Below, in pieces: positions 19,550 through 49,755 of a stretch of DNA of 64,000 nucleotides. Position numbers and translations under genes: made by a program. Origin of the DNA: a virus; IMG/VR virus record IMGVR_UViG_3300032116_000067, positions 1-64,000 of that record. One strand, given 5' to 3'. Positions within the stretch are counted from its first letter, which is position 1. Each line of letters begins with the position of its first letter. Under the pieces are notes generated by a model, which made no database searches, had not been told where the DNA came from, and worked only from the letters and a program-made list of their open reading frames with translations.

Positions 19550-19554
19550 GTTGC

Positions 19555-19878
19555 TTACGTATTTAGGTCAGCAGCTGAATTGATAGTAAAAATGCTATCA
19601 TTTGTAGTACTAATAGTACCGCTGATGGGTACATAAAACCGATAACTATCGCTGTCTACTGTGAGAGTAGAAAAAGACATCGGCATGATAATACTTTCAT
19701 AAGGTGGTATAAACTCCTTTACGGTATCCGTAGTAGCAGTTCCTATTTTCGGAGGATCCAGTTTAGCTAGATCATCTGTCTTCAGTAAAAGCAGAGCTTC
19801 TTCAAACGTGACGGCGTTCTCTTTTACCAACCGGGAGAGAAGCGTGACTTTCTGTTGGTACAGGGTACTGTTTTCCAT
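19555..19878 (-). CDS. Hypothetical protein
   Basis: Fills the terminase-portal gap and is coupled by a stop/start overlap. Confidence 0.55.
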   Translation of the reverse strand: MENSTLYQQKVTLLSRLVKENAVTFEEALLLLKTDDLAKLDPPKIGTATTDTVKEFIPPYESIIMPMSFSTLTVDSDSYRFYVPISGTISTTNDSIFTINSAADLNT

Positions 19879-30182: not shown

Positions 30183-30728
30183 AAAGTAGTGTAACTCGTT
30201 GATAATCAGGTGTGTATGTGATTGGTAGGAACACGTACACACCTTTTTCTCTTTCTCTCCTACCTCTTAATCCGCTCTATTTGACGCGGATAAGATCGCT
30301 ATATATTCTTTACGGTTGATAAACCGTGACAAGCCTGTGGGGCTACGATGTTGTTCTCTCATATAAGGGTGAGAGTATCAAGCAGAGGTTAATTCCTTTC
30401 TCTGTAATGACACGTTAGTGCAGACTTTAAAACCAGGCAGTCTACTTATTGTACGGTGTTGGGTACGTATGATGAGAGACTTTAAAGTGTGGTAACACAC
30501 ACAGTCCAACTTTGTAGACATAAAACCACTTGTCTACTTTCTCCTAGGTTTGTGGTAAACCTAAAAACATTAGGGTTCTGGTAACACTTGTTTACCGACC
30601 CGGCCCTATCAGTTGACATGGAGATGTTAGCTATGCACTAGGCGGTGTGTAGTTCTGATATGGGTTTAAAACTAAAAACAAGGGGGCTAGCCACCCCCGA
30701 AGTCCTCACCAAAAAAAAAACTATTGTT

Positions 30729-31397: not shown

Positions 31398-31550
31398 AAG
31401 TTGTAATGCACCATAACTCACTTCCCAAGGGTGAGCAGTTGTAATGTGTAATGTATTAAGCCAAGTCATGCTTGTATTGAACAGTGTGTTCCACATTAAC
31501 AAGGTAATACCTTGAGTCTTTACCATTACAACTGAGTGCAGAGGGACCTC
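31398..31550 (+). ncRNA. Twister-ribozyme-like RNA with long P5 insertion
   Basis: UAA-UGCA-CC...CUCAC-UUCCCAAGG-GUGAG-[CAGUUGUAAUG...CAUUACAACUG]-A-GUGCA-GAGGG; P1 weak. Confidence 0.65.
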
Positions 31551-32938: not shown

Positions 32939-33133
32939 ATGAAGTATTTTCTAGCAATCATCTTGTGGACCATAGCCGCGGTCCCGTTTTTTATCTGGGA
33001 GATCTTAGTCTGTATCTGGACATTTCGTACAAGTGGGTTACAGGAAACCTGGGAGGGTTATACTGACCATATCGACAGGGCTTACCGAGCAGCCTGTAGA
33101 GCACGTAGATACGGTAAACCCTCAAAATTCTAA
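32939..33133 (+). CDS. Small membrane protein
   Basis: Hydrophobic N-terminus. Confidence 0.55.
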   Translation: MKYFLAIILWTIAAVPFFIWEILVCIWTFRTSGLQETWEGYTDHIDRAYRAACRARRYGKPSKF

Positions 33134-35868: not shown

Positions 35869-35955
35869 GGTCAGGTGGTGGAGCTGGTTTAACACAAGGT
35901 AAGACACCTTTTACAGGTGGCTCACCTATCACAGGTTCGAATCCTGTCCTGACTA
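35869..35955 (+). ncRNA. tRNA-like RNA 1 (extended anticodon arm)
   Basis: Acceptor ggtcagg/cctgact, D-arm gtg..cac, T-arm acagg-TTCGAAT-cctgt. Confidence 0.7.
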
Positions 35956-35970
35956 CTTAAAATTAAGATT

Positions 35971-36228
35971 ATGAAAAATAAAAAAGAACTTGTTGATGTA
36001 CTCGAAAAAAGTGGGGTAAAAATAATTAAAACAGGTAAGAACTACGATTGGGAAGAAATATATTTTGATAATAGCAACTTAACTGTTGAAAAATTACAAA
36101 CAATAAGTTTAATTGTTAAAAATTTCTTTTATGTAGAAGATAAATTTACACACAATCTACCAAAGTTTATTGGAAAAGATGGTTATGTATGTTTAATTTT
36201 TGATAAAAAATTAGTAACTGCAATTTAA
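35971..36228 (+). CDS. AT-rich hypothetical protein
   Basis: Lies between tRNA-like 3' ends. Confidence 0.6.
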   Translation: MKNKKELVDVLEKSGVKIIKTGKNYDWEEIYFDNSNLTVEKLQTISLIVKNFFYVEDKFTHNLPKFIGKDGYVCLIFDKKLVTAI

Positions 36229-36237
36229 AATATCAAT

Positions 36238-36264
36238 ACAGGTTCGAATCCTGTTCTGACTACT
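36238..36264 (+). repeat. Isolated 3' half of the tRNA-like element
   Basis: acaggttcgaatcctgttctgactact, one mismatch to 35931-35957. Confidence 0.8.
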
Positions 36265-36285
36265 AAAACATTAAAAATAAATAAA

Positions 36286-36486
36286 ATGAGTGAATCACAC
36301 GAAAAGTACAAAGAGTACAAGAAAGCTCAACAAGCTAGAGAAAACGCAGCAAGAAGAGGGTCTCAGTATGTAAATGATTACAAACAAAAAGAACGTATTG
36401 CTGAACTTGAGTATAAGTTAAAAGATAGAGAAGAGAAAGAAGATAATGATAGAGCATATAGGCTTCTTTCTGATTATGAATATTAA
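36286..36486 (+). CDS. AT-rich charged hypothetical protein
   Basis: Lies between tRNA-like repeats. Confidence 0.6.
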   Translation: MSESHEKYKEYKKAQQARENAARRGSQYVNDYKQKERIAELEYKLKDREEKEDNDRAYRLLSDYEY

Positions 36487-36492
36487 ATGGTT

Positions 36493-36617
36493 AGTCAGGT
36501 GGCGAAATTGGTAGACGCGAGTGGTGTGTTAAATGTGGGAATAGACATAATCCCTAACCCTATAAAAAGGGCTGACCGCTTGTCTCTTAGTTGCAGGTTC
36601 GATTCCTGTCCTGACTG
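36493..36617 (+). ncRNA. tRNA-like RNA 2 (anticodon loop replaced by two hairpins)
   Basis: agtcagg/cctgact; Leu-type D-arm tggcgaaattggtagacgc; T-arm gcagg-TTCGATT-cctgt. Confidence 0.7.
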
Positions 36618-36632
36618 CTAAAAATAAAAGTT

Positions 36633-36815
36633 ATGAGAAAAAATAAAAATAAAACAATGAATAAAATTGAGAAAGCGATTTACGATGTAAAATTACACAT
36701 CAAAGAAAAGGAAAGGCAGTTATTAATTTGTCAAACAGAACTTAAATCTTTAAAAGATCAATTAGATACATTAGAAGTAATTCAAAACGATGAGTCAATA
36801 CCTCATAGTTCATAA
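36633..36815 (+). CDS. AT-rich coiled-coil protein
   Basis: Lies between tRNA-like repeats. Confidence 0.55.
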   Translation: MRKNKNKTMNKIEKAIYDVKLHIKEKERQLLICQTELKSLKDQLDTLEVIQNDESIPHSS

Positions 36816-36828
36816 ATAACAGCGTAAC

Positions 36829-36968
36829 AGTCAGGTGGCGGAATTAGTAGACGCACAATGGGATGCACGGTGTGACTCCGTGGAAGTGCTCCTCAAAAGG
36901 TTGAGCTACCCGTTGTAACAAAGACCCGAAGTACAAGGGTTGTGCCGGGGCAGAACCGGCCTTGACTA
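36829..36968 (+). ncRNA. tRNA-like RNA 3 (two-hairpin anticodon domain plus variable arm)
   Basis: agtcagg/cttgact; tggcggaattagtagacgc; acaatggg/cccgttgt; T-arm gccgg-GGCAGAA-ccggc. Confidence 0.65.
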
Positions 36969-37290
36969 CACTATCTCCTTTTTAGTTTATAATTCATAAG
37001 TATCGACTGAAAAGACGAACTAACGTTCCGGGTGTGCCACCGGATAGTATGCCCTATACGATGAGAAGTACGCTGGCTGCGTACATGGGTAAGTGGCGGT
37101 TACTTGGTAACAGCAGGCTGATCACCTGAACATCGACAATGTGAACGATCTATTCCTAACCCACCTAGAAAATATAGCAGAGAAGACACCGAAAGTCTTC
37201 TGTGGGGACAGCCGCAACACCTGTAAGTTGGATAGATTAGGGTGCTTTCTTCTATTTTCTTCAAACACTCACTTATAAACTTCTCCATTC

Positions 37291-47987: not shown

Positions 47988-48650
47988 ATGAAAATTCCAA
48001 GGTCTTTTGGTTTAAAAACTTGTGGTATATACTGTATAACTAATACTAGTAACAAAAAACAGTATATCGGTAGTAGTAAAAATATATACCATAGGTTAAA
48101 ACGGCATCAGTCAGAGCTGCGACGAGGTATTCATGCCAACCCGCATCTTCAAAACAGTTATAATAAGCATGGTAAAAACTGCTTTGAGGTCTCAATTCTT
48201 GAAGAAGTTCCTGTAGAACTTTTAGTCCAAAAAGAACAGGAGTATATTAATAATCTAGAACCAGCATATAATATCACACTAGAAGTTATTAGAAATACTC
48301 CTTCTCAAGAGTCTAGAAGAAAAATCTCAGCTACTCTAAAACAGCAAAAGTTAATGGGTTTATTAAAATATCCTACGCATGATGATAAAAAAAAACCAGT
48401 GACAATATACGATATAGACTGTAACTGTTTTGGAACTTATGAATCTGAGCGGGCTGCTGCTAAAAAGTTAGAAGAGCTTTATCCCGGGCTAAAGTACTCT
48501 CAATCCGTAGTCAACAGTACTATAAACTTAAAAAACAAAAGAGTAGTTAGTAGATATAAAAGGCATTTCTTGCTTAGACCTGAACAGAAATGTATTACTA
48601 AAAAAGAGCTATGTGAAACAAAAAAATACAAGAGACAGTATACAAGCTGA
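47988..48650 (+). CDS. GIY-YIG homing endonuclease
   Basis: CGIYCI.N..N.K.YIGSS..I..R...H, H.N..LQ, EQ.YI, YNI; NUMOD-like C-terminus; AT-rich. Confidence 0.92.
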   Translation: MKIPRSFGLKTCGIYCITNTSNKKQYIGSSKNIYHRLKRHQSELRRGIHANPHLQNSYNKHGKNCFEVSILEEVPVELLVQKEQEYINNLEPAYNITLEVIRNTPSQESRRKISATLKQQKLMGLLKYPTHDDKKKPVTIYDIDCNCFGTYESERAAAKKLEELYPGLKYSQSVVNSTINLKNKRVVSRYKRHFLLRPEQKCITKKELCETKKYKRQYTS

Positions 48651-49755
48651 TGCTATAGAAGTTGCTTTAAATCACAAATGTTGTTCGTTAGCCTTAAGCA
48701 TGGGGGTCGGTAAAACCCTCATCGGACTACGATACTTGGACCATTACCAGCAGTCTAACATGTACAAGCTCAATGTGCTGGTAGTGGCTCCAAAGCTCAG
48801 CATATTTCAGAGCTGGCAAGATGACGCAGTAAAGTTTGGCCTTCCCCAGGAACTCCTGGAGAAGGTCACCTTTACCACGTATCTATCACTAAACAAACAT
48901 AACCCGCATCACTATGACATAGTGGTGTTGGACGAGTGTCACAGTCTTTTAGAGTCCCATCAAACTTTCCTGGCTAACTACCACGGTAGAGTACTGGGTC
49001 TGACGGGTACTCCGCCCCGGTATCACAACAGTGAAAAAGGCAGGATCGTCGGTAAGTACTGTCCTGTGATGTTTAAGTACATCACCGATGACGCGGTAGA
49101 TGATCAGATCCTGAATGATTACCGGATCATCGTACACCGGATGCCATTAAGTACCCAGAATACGATACCGGTAACTATGAAGAACAGTACGTTCATGACC
49201 TCTGAGCGTAAAAGCTATGACTACTGGAGCAAACGTATCATGGAAGCCCAGAGTAAAAAGCAGGAACAGATCTCGTCCGTTATGCGAATGAGGGTCCTGA
49301 TGGACTTTCGAACCAAAGAAGACTACGCCAAGTATCTACTGGAAGAAATAGAAGAAAAGTGTATTGTCTTCTGTAACACCCAAGCCCAGGCAGATCGTGT
49401 ATGCAGTCACTCGGTACACTCCGAGAACCCAGACGCAGAAGCAAACCTTGACATGTTTAAGAAAGACCAGATCGACAAGCTATCCTGTGTACTGCAGCTC
49501 AACGAGGGTATCAATATTCCAAACCTTCGGGCCGGGATCATTATGCATGCATACGGCAACGAGCGCAAGAGTTCACAGCGTATCGGACGTCTGCTTCGTC
49601 TGAACCCAGACGACACAGCGGTGGTGCACATACTCTGCTACCAGAATACGGTAGACGAGCGGTGGGTCACGGAAGCTTTAAAAGACCTGGACCAGAACAA
49701 GATCAAGTATCACGATGTAAACATGAGTAGTCATGAATCTTCATTTCAACGGTAA
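48613..49755 (+). CDS. SF2 (DEAD/DEAH-like) helicase
   Basis: MGVGKT, DECH, GLTGT, EGINIP, QRIGRLLR. Confidence 0.92.
   Translation: MKQKNTRDSIQADAIEVALNHKCCSLALSMGVGKTLIGLRYLDHYQQSNMYKLNVLVVAPKLSIFQSWQDDAVKFGLPQELLEKVTFTTYLSLNKHNPHHYDIVVLDECHSLLESHQTFLANYHGRVLGLTGTPPRYHNSEKGRIVGKYCPVMFKYITDDAVDDQILNDYRIIVHRMPLSTQNTIPVTMKNSTFMTSERKSYDYWSKRIMEAQSKKQEQISSVMRMRVLMDFRTKEDYAKYLLEEIEEKCIVFCNTQAQADRVCSHSVHSENPDAEANLDMFKKDQIDKLSCVLQLNEGINIPNLRAGIIMHAYGNERKSSQRIGRLLRLNPDDTAVVHILCYQNTVDERWVTEALKDLDQNKIKYHDVNMSSHESSFQR

What the first reader, a model, noticed from the sequence alone, without database searches (positions are those of the whole stretch)
35869..36968. Family of tRNA-like RNAs whose anticodon loop is replaced by extra structured domains
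Seen: three elements (35869-35955, 36493-36617, 36829-36968) share an acceptor stem RGTCAGG/CYTGACT, a D-arm and a 5-bp T-arm. Copies 2 and 3 have the tRNA-Leu-like D-arm tggcg.aatt.gtagacgc. The T stems covary (acagg/cctgt, gcagg/cctgt, gccgg/ccggc), and copy 3 has a non-canonical GGCAGAA loop. None has a normal anticodon arm. Copy 1 has an elongated arm. In copies 2 and 3 a 7-8 bp stem (gagtggt/accgctt; acaatggg/cccgttgt) closes a junction of two hairpins unrelated in sequence. Inference: structure kept despite sequence divergence argues for a functional non-decoding tRNA mimic rather than decay. Candidate roles are decoy for anticodon nucleases or tRNA-sensing defences, RNase P/Z processing signal, or aminoacyl donor.
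Basis: partly seen in the sequence, partly recalled or inferred. Interest (0 to 1): 0.85.

Follow-up and report, generated by a model that had tools for sequence, protein, structure and literature searches.

The report
Phage tRNA-shell RNAs carrying swappable inserts
This uncultured phage carries three genes (plus one remnant) for RNAs that keep the upper body of a leucine tRNA but hold folded inserts where the codon-reading arm should be. They belong to a large phage-borne family in which the inserts are exchanged like cassettes, and whose job has not been tested.

Summary
All three elements have a 7-bp acceptor stem, a D-arm and a 5-bp T-arm, and none has a usable anticodon arm.

They are members of a large family:
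- 258 elements in about 137 uncultured-virus or MAG contigs.
- A near-constant shell, AGUCAGG...ACAGGUUCGAAUCCUGU-CCUGACU-A.
- About 200 unrelated inserts of 20-140 nt.

The shell pairs covary. The inserts of copies 2 and 3 have homologues with compensating changes. The flanks are tRNA-like (U at -1 in 78%, C74 in 95%). Related phages differ by insert swaps that break exactly at the shell halves. Elements alternate tightly with small ORFs.

The best reading is a tRNA-Leu-derived chassis that host tRNA-processing enzymes cut out, giving stable RNAs that display a cargo and also punctuating the transcript. What the cargo does is unknown.

I found the family in no paper and in no Rfam family other than tRNA. 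The nearest precedents are the "tRNA-like stable RNAs" of phages T5 and T4. One member sits unannotated in the cultured Bacteroides phage BS-TP2. This scan had already noted the same family on other genomes.

The parts
35869..35955 (+). Copy 1: an 87-nt tRNA-shell RNA. Acceptor GGUCAGG/CCUGACU, A73, canonical T-arm, a D-arm that is not Leu-like, and an elongated arm or 5-nt loop in place of the anticodon arm.
   Evidence: R1 56.1 bits. Rfam tRNA 40.3 bits with an oversized middle. ARAGORN's picture shows a weak stem and A33. Fold. No homologue of its D-arm or insert in IMG/VR.
35971..36228 (+). Small AT-rich ORF of 85 aa. It starts 15 nt after copy 1 and ends 9 nt before the half-element.
   Evidence: no PHROG match, no homologue in the fetched loci
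36238..36262 (+). Orphan 3' half of a shell: T-arm ACAGG-UUCGAAU-CCUGU, then UCUGACU and A73. There is no credible 5' half, because the upstream sequence is the end of the 85-aa ORF.
   Evidence: R1 35.3 bits over 36164-36262, with mismatched acceptor and D pairs. Rfam tRNA 21.4 bits, below threshold. Pattern match.
36286..36486 (+). Small ORF of 66 aa. It starts 23 nt after the half-element and ends 6 nt before copy 2.
36493..36617 (+). Copy 2: a 125-nt shell. AGUCAGG/CCUGACU, G73, tRNA-Leu D-arm. A 5-7 bp stem closes an invariant core hairpin and a variable second hairpin.
   Evidence: R1 61.8 bits. Eight distinct homologues with four different acceptor stems: 12 of 31 pairs compensated, and a 39-nt core that never varies.
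36633..36815 (+). Small ORF of 60 aa. It starts 15 nt after copy 2 and ends 13 nt before copy 3.
   Evidence: A homologue with 54% identity lies in L058.
36829..36968 (+). Copy 3: a 140-nt shell. AGUCAGG/CCUUGACU, A73, a Leu D-arm with A in place of G18. An 8-bp stem closes two hairpins, followed by a variable-arm hairpin. The T-loop GGCAGAA is non-canonical.
   Evidence: R1 31.5 bits. Against L008: 9 compensated pairs, 2 one-sided changes and 0 broken, out of 36. Fold.
37022..37250 (+). A neighbouring structured non-coding RNA of about 215-230 nt. In six other phage loci it directly abuts the 3' end of a shell, and a further shell often follows it.
   Evidence: conserved blocks, and a hairpin with compensated pairs. 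No Rfam hit.

Best explanation
The three elements are genes for non-decoding 'chassis' RNAs derived from a phage tRNA-Leu.

Shown:
- They keep the acceptor/T-arm minihelix, and usually the tRNA-Leu D-arm, under RNA-level selection.
- They have lost the anticodon arm.
- They carry structured inserts that are themselves conserved with compensating changes.
- They belong to a family of hundreds of elements with about 200 unrelated inserts, found on contigs classed as viral or on MAG contigs.
- They sit head to tail with small ORFs.
- Related phages differ by insert swaps whose breakpoints lie at the junctions between shell and insert.

Inferred:
- The elements are transcribed within an early or accessory operon on the + strand.
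- Host RNase P cuts at the 5' end (U at -1), and the host tRNA 3'-end pathway trims at or after C74 and adds CCA.
- This releases a stable L-shaped RNA that displays its insert. It is a natural version of the laboratory 'tRNA scaffold'.
- The same cuts separate the flanking small mRNAs and neighbouring non-coding RNAs.
- The insert, not the shell, carries the specific activity, most likely binding a host or phage macromolecule.
- The constant shell halves also serve as short homology arms through which inserts and adjacent ORFs are exchanged between phages.
For: Family and shell:
- There are 258 elements, 238 of them unique. AGTCAGG is present in 211 and A73 in 209 of 238.
- T-stem pairs carry compensated double changes in 20, 15, 14 and 5 sequences, with 1-5 breaks per pair.
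- The acceptor stem covaries fully in the copy 2 class, which was gathered without reference to the acceptor.

Inserts are functional:
- 236 unique elements fall into 203 insert clusters.
- Insert folding z-score averages -0.87 against -0.30 for same-length genome controls, p = 1.3e-4.
- Compensated pairs are seen in the inserts of copy 3 and copy 2. The copy 2 core of 39 nt is identical under four different acceptor stems.

Processing:
- U at -1 in 78% and C at +74 in 95% of elements, as in host tRNA genes.
- In other phages the elements lie inside real tRNA clusters.
- T5 RNA1, which has the same architecture and a Leu-type D-arm, is annotated as a stable RNA.
- The tRNA-scaffold technology shows that such chimeras are processed and accumulate (PMC3753655, PMC3401473).

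Punctuation:
- An ORF starts 10-29 nt downstream of 35% of elements, against 11% for random positions.
- An open frame ends within 14 nt upstream of 64 of 254 elements.
- In the window the gaps are 15, 9, 23, 6, 15 and 13 nt.

Exchange:
- 17.7% of homology breakpoints lie in or within 10 nt of an element, against 3.5% for random positions.
- L072 and L110 share the upstream DNA and the 5' module but have different inserts. L006 and L046 share the 3' module and the ORF but have different inserts.
- This phage encodes a Sak4-like annealing protein.

Not a host tRNA: the 3' module occurs in only 18 contigs among genomes of 185,579 species, all of them MAGs.
Against: - I could get no expression or end-mapping data.
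- No target or activity is known for any insert.
- No protein partner is conserved nearby. The commonest neighbouring protein family occurs in 10 of 120 loci.
- The apparent constancy of AGUCAGG comes partly from how the loci were collected. In the copy 2 class, gathered through the insert, 3 of 8 sequences have other acceptor stems.
- A closing stem is not a general feature, so the geometry of 'display' is not uniform.
- Copy 1 has no homologue, so selection on its middle part is not shown.
- Deleted and half elements exist: L049 against L062 and window 36238-36262. Some copies are therefore decaying.
Confidence: 0.6

Rival explanations
1. Pure punctuation. The shells are only cis-acting processing signals for RNase P and RNase Z that cut a polycistronic transcript into small mRNAs, like the t-elements of plant mitochondria. 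The inserts are neutral filler.
For: Tight ORF-element-ORF packing. tRNA-like flanks. The 215-nt RNA is bracketed by shells in other phages. The t-element precedent (PMC1920247).
Against: Inserts are conserved with compensated pairs, and one has an invariant 39-nt core. Inserts are more structured than controls. A plain hairpin would be enough for punctuation, yet inserts reach 140 nt.
Confidence: 0.15
2. Leucine-accepting tRNA mimic. The shells are charged by host LeuRS, which does not need the anticodon. They then act as an aminoacyl donor, a sink for LeuRS or EF-Tu, or a decoy for defences that sense or cut tRNA.
For: The D-arm is identical to host tRNA-Leu. A73 is present in 88%. E. coli tRNA-Leu lacking both the anticodon arm and the variable arm is still charged, and charging depends on A73, G18:U55, G19-C56 and U54:A58 (PMC9976931, read).
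Against: Only 125 of 258 elements keep the Leu D-arm, even though the loci were collected through it. Copy 2 has G73, which is an anti-determinant for LeuRS in E. coli. Copy 3 has A18 and a GGCAGAA T-loop. The discriminator varies within the copy 2 class. Almost no insert has an anticodon-like loop, so decoys for anticodon nucleases are unlikely. A CCA-adding enzyme family is found in only 3 of 38 records.
Confidence: 0.1
3. DNA-level cassette boundaries. The conserved halves exist mainly as recombination sites for shuffling small accessory genes, comparable to the PeSL cassettes of T4-type phages. Any RNA made from them is incidental.
For: Breakpoints are enriched at elements and swaps are exact. 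An orphan half lies in the window. The cassettes have lower GC (0.33 against about 0.44). orf60 and orf69 have homologues in other element-bearing loci.
Against: Compensated changes keep the T and acceptor helices intact. U at -1 and C74 are conserved. All copies in a genome lie on one strand. These are RNA-level constraints that a DNA site would not need.
Confidence: 0.08
4. Ordinary or decaying tRNA genes. Copy 1 would be a working tRNA-Val(GAC), and copies 2 and 3 tRNA-Leu pseudogenes with junk insertions.
For: ARAGORN calls copy 1 tRNA-Val. Copies 1 and 2 pass the Rfam tRNA threshold. Some family members are visibly deleted.
Against: Copy 1's called anticodon stem has only 2 Watson-Crick pairs, and it has A33 in place of the near-universal U33. 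The inserts of copies 2 and 3 are under structural or sequence selection. ARAGORN finds no tRNA at their homologues.
Confidence: 0.04

Closest known systems
Phage T5 RNA1 and RNA2 (NC_005859 misc_RNA T5s03 30501-30644 and T5s06 32959-33083, annotated 'tRNA-like stable RNA with unknown functions')
   Same: Both lie in a phage tRNA cluster. Each has an acceptor-like end pairing and a canonical T-arm. RNA1 has a tRNA-Leu-type D-arm (CCGGAAUUGGUAGACGG) and about 100 nt in place of the anticodon region. RNA2 has the T-arm GCAGG-UUCGAAU-CCUGU. Their function is unknown.
   Different: The acceptor stems and inserts are different. The family model R1 gives 22-23 bits, no better than ordinary T5 and T4 tRNAs. 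They are therefore analogues or very distant relatives. They are single genes in one phage group, and no swapping of inserts is known for them.
Phage T4 species 1 RNA (rnaC, NC_000866 70908-71046)
   Same: A 139-nt stable RNA at the end of the T4 tRNA cluster. It has a CCGGG-UUCGAAU-CCCGG T-arm, paired ends and a large structured middle (z = -4.6). Its function is unknown.
   Different: It has no Leu D-arm, and its end pairing is irregular. R1 gives 20.4 bits. It is not in Rfam.
Class II bacterial and phage tRNA-Leu (Rfam RF00005)
   Same: The D-arm, U8, A73, T-arm and C74 flank match genuine Bacteroidota tRNA-Leu genes. Copy 3 keeps a variable-arm hairpin.
   Different: There is no anticodon stem-loop. 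The acceptor AGUCAGG, with A1-U72, was not seen in the host tRNA-Leu genes I examined. The 3' module is absent from all isolate genomes scanned.
Engineered tRNA scaffold for recombinant RNA (Ponchon and Dardel; PMC3753655, PMC3401473)
   Same: A foreign structured RNA replaces the anticodon arm, while the shell provides processing and nuclease resistance.
   Different: The scaffold is man-made and uses tRNA-Lys or tRNA-Met shells. Whether the natural family works the same way is inferred, not shown.
Plant mitochondrial t-elements and the mascRNA of MALAT1
   Same: These are tRNA-like structures that RNase P and RNase Z use to form the ends of neighbouring transcripts (PMC1920247).
   Different: They are eukaryotic or organellar, carry no cargo, and are not exchanged as a modular family.

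Membership tests
Canonical decoding tRNA (Rfam RF00005 / ARAGORN) | 7-bp acceptor stem with a discriminator, and a 5-bp T stem | tested here: met
   All three copies.
Canonical decoding tRNA (Rfam RF00005 / ARAGORN) | Anticodon arm: 5-bp stem and a 7-nt loop with U33 and a purine at 37 | tested here: not met
   Copy 1 has a weak stem and A33. Copies 2 and 3 have 64 and about 105 nt in its place. ARAGORN is silent on copies 2 and 3.
Canonical decoding tRNA (Rfam RF00005 / ARAGORN) | Score at or above Rfam's gathering threshold of 29 bits | tested here: inconclusive
   Copy 1 scores 40.3 and copy 2 scores 37.3, but only through the shell, with the middle skipped. Copy 3 gives no hit at E<=10.
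Canonical decoding tRNA (Rfam RF00005 / ARAGORN) | Canonical T-loop UUCRANY | tested here: inconclusive
   Met in copy 1 (UUCGAAU) and copy 2 (UUCGAUU). Not met in copy 3 (GGCAGAA).
Phage tRNA-Leu-shell family (defined here by model R1, built from 45 elements of other phages) | Significant score with R1 | tested here: met
   61.8, 56.1 and 31.5 bits, plus 35.3 for the half-element. The next hit in the window scores 12.9.
Phage tRNA-Leu-shell family (defined here by model R1, built from 45 elements of other phages) | Shell sequence AGUCAGG...CCUGACU-A, followed by C74 | tested here: met
   Copy 1 has G1. Copy 2 has G73. Copy 3 has a G6.U67 pair. All are followed by C.
Phage tRNA-Leu-shell family (defined here by model R1, built from 45 elements of other phages) | tRNA-Leu type D-arm GGCGRAAUUGGUAGACGC | tested here: inconclusive
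   Met in copy 2. Met in copy 3 except for G18 changed to A. Not met in copy 1. Only 125 of 258 family members keep it.
Phage tRNA-Leu-shell family (defined here by model R1, built from 45 elements of other phages) | The insert has homologues that preserve its structure | tested here: inconclusive
   Met for copy 2 (8 sequences) and copy 3 (1 homologue). Copy 1 has no homologue.
T5 RNA1/RNA2 and T4 rnaC stable RNAs | Detectable sequence or profile relationship | tested here: not met
   R1 gives 20-23 bits, the same as ordinary tRNAs in those loci. The resemblance is one of architecture only.
T5 RNA1/RNA2 and T4 rnaC stable RNAs | Accumulates as a discrete stable RNA during infection | not testable with these tools
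tmRNA | tRNA-Ala-like ends, a tag reading frame and pseudoknots | tested here: not met
   ARAGORN finds no tmRNA. There is no Rfam tmRNA hit.
Bacterial Y RNA (YrlA) and other Rfam tRNA-like families | Match to the family model | tested here: not met
   At E<=10 there is no hit other than RF00005, apart from chance-level matches to unrelated small RNAs.

The most novel reading that the evidence does not exclude
The inserts are a horizontally traded library of small RNA effectors, for example aptamer-like sponges or inhibitors of host defence or host RNA-handling proteins. Bacteroidota phages would express them from one universal tRNA chassis and exchange them by recombination at the chassis halves, making an RNA counterpart of protein anti-defence gene cassettes.
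Probability: 0.25. Interest if true: 0.9.

Novelty: new variant of a known kind. Interest (0 to 1): 0.66.

Why it matters
Isolated tRNA-like stable RNAs have been known in T4 and T5 for decades, and their function is still unknown. This work shows that the same architecture is a large modular system in uncultured phages. The evidence for hosts points to Bacteroidota. One constant tRNA shell carries about 200 different structured inserts, with copy numbers up to 13 per genome and cassette-like exchange between phages.

If the shells are cut out by the host's tRNA enzymes, phages have a general way of making many stable small RNAs. The inserts would then be a large untapped set of natural functional RNA modules.

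The family is missed or mislabelled by standard annotation. ARAGORN calls copy 1 tRNA-Val, and Rfam calls copies 1 and 2 tRNA. A member in the cultured Bacteroides phage BS-TP2 makes the question testable at the bench.

Tried and rejected
- BLAST of the 2-kb region against GenBank phages found no match. With one element as query, cultured phages matched only through the generic tRNA-Leu D-arm. BS-TP2 proved to be a real member only when tested with R1.
- Relatives of this phage sought through the 194-aa neighbouring protein: none found.
- Copy 1's D-arm pattern in IMG/VR: 0 hits.
- A motif from the copy 3 insert: 23 hits, but only L008 and L109 (identical to each other) are homologues. The rest are chance matches in coding DNA.
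- A conserved neighbouring protein: none found.
- A phage-encoded CCA-adding enzyme as partner: found in 3 of 38 records, and in none of 12 complete genomes.
- Bacteroidetes-type promoter directly upstream: none in the window. Across the family it occurs in 6.7% against 2.3% for controls.
- Known Rfam families for the inserts, ribozymes included: none. A likeness I recalled between the copy 2 core and pistol ribozymes was not borne out by Rfam, so I dropped it.
- Reading copy 2 as a tRNA with an intron: no splice would give a plausible anticodon loop (inspection of the sequences).
- Anticodon-loop mimicry in the inserts: rejected.
- A general closing stem: rejected.
Full report
**What is in the window**

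The record is a tailed-phage contig of 100 kb, estimated 77% complete. Structural genes lie on the minus strand up to about 28.7 kb: tail fibre, major head, portal and terminase. Early and replication genes lie on the plus strand beyond it: AAA ATPase, GIY-YIG endonuclease, helicase, UDG, DnaB, a Sak4-like annealing protein and primase. Between them, from about 29.0 to 37.3 kb, there are only small ORFs and non-coding sequence.

The finding sits in that stretch. The layout is as follows:

| Feature | Coordinates | Gap to the next feature |
|---|---|---|
| Copy 1 | 35869-35955 | 15 nt |
| 85-aa ORF | 35971-36228 | 9 nt |
| Shell 3' half | 36238-36262 | 23 nt |
| 66-aa ORF | 36286-36486 | 6 nt |
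| Copy 2 | 36493-36617 | 15 nt |
| 60-aa ORF | 36633-36815 | 13 nt |
| Copy 3 | 36829-36968 | |

The block containing the ORFs has GC 0.33, against about 0.44 elsewhere.

**Checking the observation**

- ARAGORN reports only copy 1, as tRNA-Val(GAC). Its drawing needs an anticodon stem of A-U, A-U, G.U, G.U and a U/C mismatch, and puts A at position 33. That is not a credible decoding arm.
- Rfam's tRNA model passes copy 1 (40.3 bits) and copy 2 (37.3 bits). It does so only by aligning the shell and skipping 27 and 64 nt where 13 are expected. Copy 3 gets no hit at all.
- The D-arm of copies 2 and 3 is letter for letter that of real tRNA-Leu genes in Bacteroidota MAGs. None of those genes has the acceptor AGUCAGG.

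**A very large family**

Nearly all of them have AGTCAGGTGGCGGAATTGGTAGACGC at the 5' end and ACAGGTTCGAATCCTGTCCTGACTA at the 3' end. The middle is 20-140 nt and cannot be aligned between members.

I then searched again from the 3' module. This gave 258 elements, 238 of them unique, in these loci, in 18 MAG contigs and in the window. Main properties:
- AGTCAGG is present in 211 of the 258 elements and A73 in 209 of the 238 unique ones.
- Only 125 of the 258 keep the Leu D-arm.
- Copy number is 1-13 per record. In all records but one, every copy lies on one strand. The reversed control pattern gave no match at all.
- L053 holds 13 elements in 5 kb, interleaved with small ORFs, a real tRNA and GC-rich non-coding stretches.

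The 3' module occurs in only 18 contigs among genomes of 185,579 prokaryote species. All 18 are MAG contigs, and nine of them are from Bacteroidota lineages: Chitinophagia, Sediminibacterium, Flavobacterium, Saprospirales and others. So the shell is not a host tRNA, and it appears to be carried by phages.

A covariance model, R1, was built from 45 elements of other phages. Run over the whole window with filters off, it finds copy 2 (61.8 bits), copy 1 (56.1), the half-element (35.3, with mismatched 5' pairs) and copy 3 (31.5). Nothing else scores above 12.9 bits.

**Selection acts on the RNA**
- In the T stem, which was only partly used to collect the elements, four of the five pairs show compensated double changes in 5-20 sequences, with 1-5 breaks each.
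- Copy 3 has one distinct homologue (L008, identical to L109). Of 36 predicted pairs, 9 are compensated, 2 have one-sided changes and none is broken. The compensated pairs include three in the 8-bp closing stem and pairs in both hairpins and the variable arm.
- The copy 2 insert has eight distinct relatives. All seven acceptor pairs covary, because four different acceptor stems carry the same insert. Pairs of the second hairpin and the T stem also covary. The closing stem and the first hairpin, 39 nt in all, are identical in every sequence. That invariance says nothing about their pairing, but it does point to a sequence-specific partner.
- Across the family, inserts fold better than shuffled versions: mean z is -0.87, against -0.30 for same-length pieces of the same contigs (p = 1.3e-4).
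- 236 unique elements form 203 insert clusters.

**How it probably works**

*Processing.* The flanks look like those of tRNA genes. Position -1 is U in 78% of elements, and the base after the discriminator is C in 95%, followed by an A-rich run. CCA itself is encoded in only 6 of 240. The host tRNA genes I examined also carry C74, mostly without a complete CCA. U at -1 is the preferred context for bacterial RNase P. That last statement is my own knowledge and was not tested here.

*Punctuation.* An ORF of at least 30 codons starts 10-29 nt downstream of 35% of elements, against 11% for random positions. An open frame ends within 14 nt upstream of 64 of 254 elements. In other phages the elements lie inside real tRNA clusters.

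Together these results fit excision by the host's tRNA-end enzymes. Excision would both release the shell RNAs and cut the transcript between the small genes. That is inference, because I could obtain no RNA data.

*Precedents.* The T5 record annotates RNA1 as a 'tRNA-like stable RNA'. It has a Leu-type D-arm, a T-arm and about 100 nt of other structure. The laboratory tRNA scaffold shows that such chimeras are processed and accumulate (PMC3753655).

**Exchange between phages**

Internal ends of homology between related loci fall in or within 10 nt of an element in 17.7% of cases, against 3.5% for random positions. Three examples:
- L072 and L110 are 81% identical upstream and through the 26-nt 5' module. 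From there on they have unrelated inserts.
- L006 and L046 share the 3' module and the following ORF at 94% identity, but have different inserts.
- L049 has a 65-nt deletion that removes part of an element which is intact in L062.

The half-element in the window looks like a scar of the same kind. orf60 and the next gene, orf69, have homologues in other loci that carry elements.

**Roles I consider less likely**
- *Leucine charging.* This is attractive, because E. coli LeuRS needs neither the anticodon arm nor the variable arm. [quoted passage not shown] But copy 2 has G73, copy 3 has lost G18 and U54-U55, and about half the family lacks the Leu D-arm.
- *Decoys for anticodon nucleases.* Only 11 of 238 inserts contain an anticodon-like hairpin. 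Most of those are nested T-arms or real tRNAs that share the shell.
- *A DNA-only recombination site.* This does not explain the compensated helices, the single-strand orientation or the conserved -1 and +74 positions.

**Comparison with what is known**

No paper in the held library describes the family. A survey of 10,006 candidate viral RNAs mentions only five candidates that overlap tRNA predictions (PMC10690425). Rfam has nothing for these elements beyond tRNA.
- T5 RNA1 and RNA2 and T4 rnaC share the architecture, but R1 scores them no higher than ordinary tRNAs.
- The cultured Bacteroides phage BS-TP2 has an unannotated element between two genes. It scores 55.8 bits with R1, ARAGORN does not call it, and its acceptor is GGUAUCG/CGAUACC. 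It is followed after 19 nt by a gene start.

Earlier notes of this scan describe the same family in at least a dozen other genomes. The T5 lead came from those notes, and I checked it myself. Their claim about SPP1 and phi3T I did not check.

**Verdict**

I rate it a new variant of a known kind, namely phage tRNA-like stable RNAs. The new aspects are the constant shell, the hundreds of swappable inserts and the punctuation of small-gene arrays. The mechanism (excision, stability, display) is inferred with moderate confidence. What the inserts do is unknown.

Noticed in passing
window 30306-30438 (+): A full-length Hatchet self-cleaving ribozyme (RF02678, 78.1 bits against a threshold of 51). 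It lies 5.4 kb upstream, on the same strand and in the same ORF-poor stretch.
   Followed up: no
window 37022-37250 (+); also L021, L035/L108, L049/L062, L054, L102: A recurrent non-coding RNA of about 215-230 nt. Its conserved blocks are ACGUUCCG..CGGAUAGUAUGCCC.AUACGAUGAGAA, UAUUCCUAAC and GGACAGCCRCAACACCUGUAAGUUGGAUA..AGGGUG, and one hairpin shows compensated pairs. In the other loci it starts directly after a shell's 3' end, and another shell often follows it. It has no Rfam match.
   Followed up: partly
window 31401-31445 (+); L043:9202-9246; L099:7108-7147: A 45-nt stretch that is 100% identical in two otherwise unrelated phage contigs. It is a hairpin (CUCAC/GUGAG) between two GUUGUAAU repeats.
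   Followed up: no
L195:395-502 (Bacteroides phage BS-TP2, PQ571275.1 about 19550-19657): An unannotated family member in a cultured phage with a known host, B. salyersiae BG8. R1 gives 55.8 bits and ARAGORN calls nothing. It lies 19 nt upstream of the NinG/Rap gene.
   Followed up: partly
L053:7183-12207: An array of 13 shells in 5 kb. It also carries repeated Bacteroidetes-type promoter sequences (TTTG..TAnnTTTG), one of which ends about 14 nt before a shell.
   Followed up: partly
L007, L010, L025, L178 (3' ends of elements): In some members the 3' acceptor strand is interrupted or replaced after CCUGUC. The extra piece is a hairpin of about 45 nt with a GUAGAAAU loop, or a CCUCGGCU-type end. 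This could be a small inserted element or a recombinant with another shell type.
   Followed up: no
L053:9135-9190 and L191, directly after its element: A third recurrent sequence, CCAAGUUAACC.CACUAAGAC.AGAAACG.., directly follows shell 3' ends in two loci.
   Followed up: no
window 47988-49755 (+): A GIY-YIG homing-type endonuclease gene lies immediately upstream of a helicase ORF. The helicase's ResIII match begins at profile position 33, so the helicase gene may have been split by the endonuclease.
   Followed up: no
window 36829-36968: In copy 3, the D-loop change of G18 to A occurs together with a T-loop that has G in place of U55. These two positions normally pair in tRNA, so the changes may compensate for each other.
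   Followed up: no
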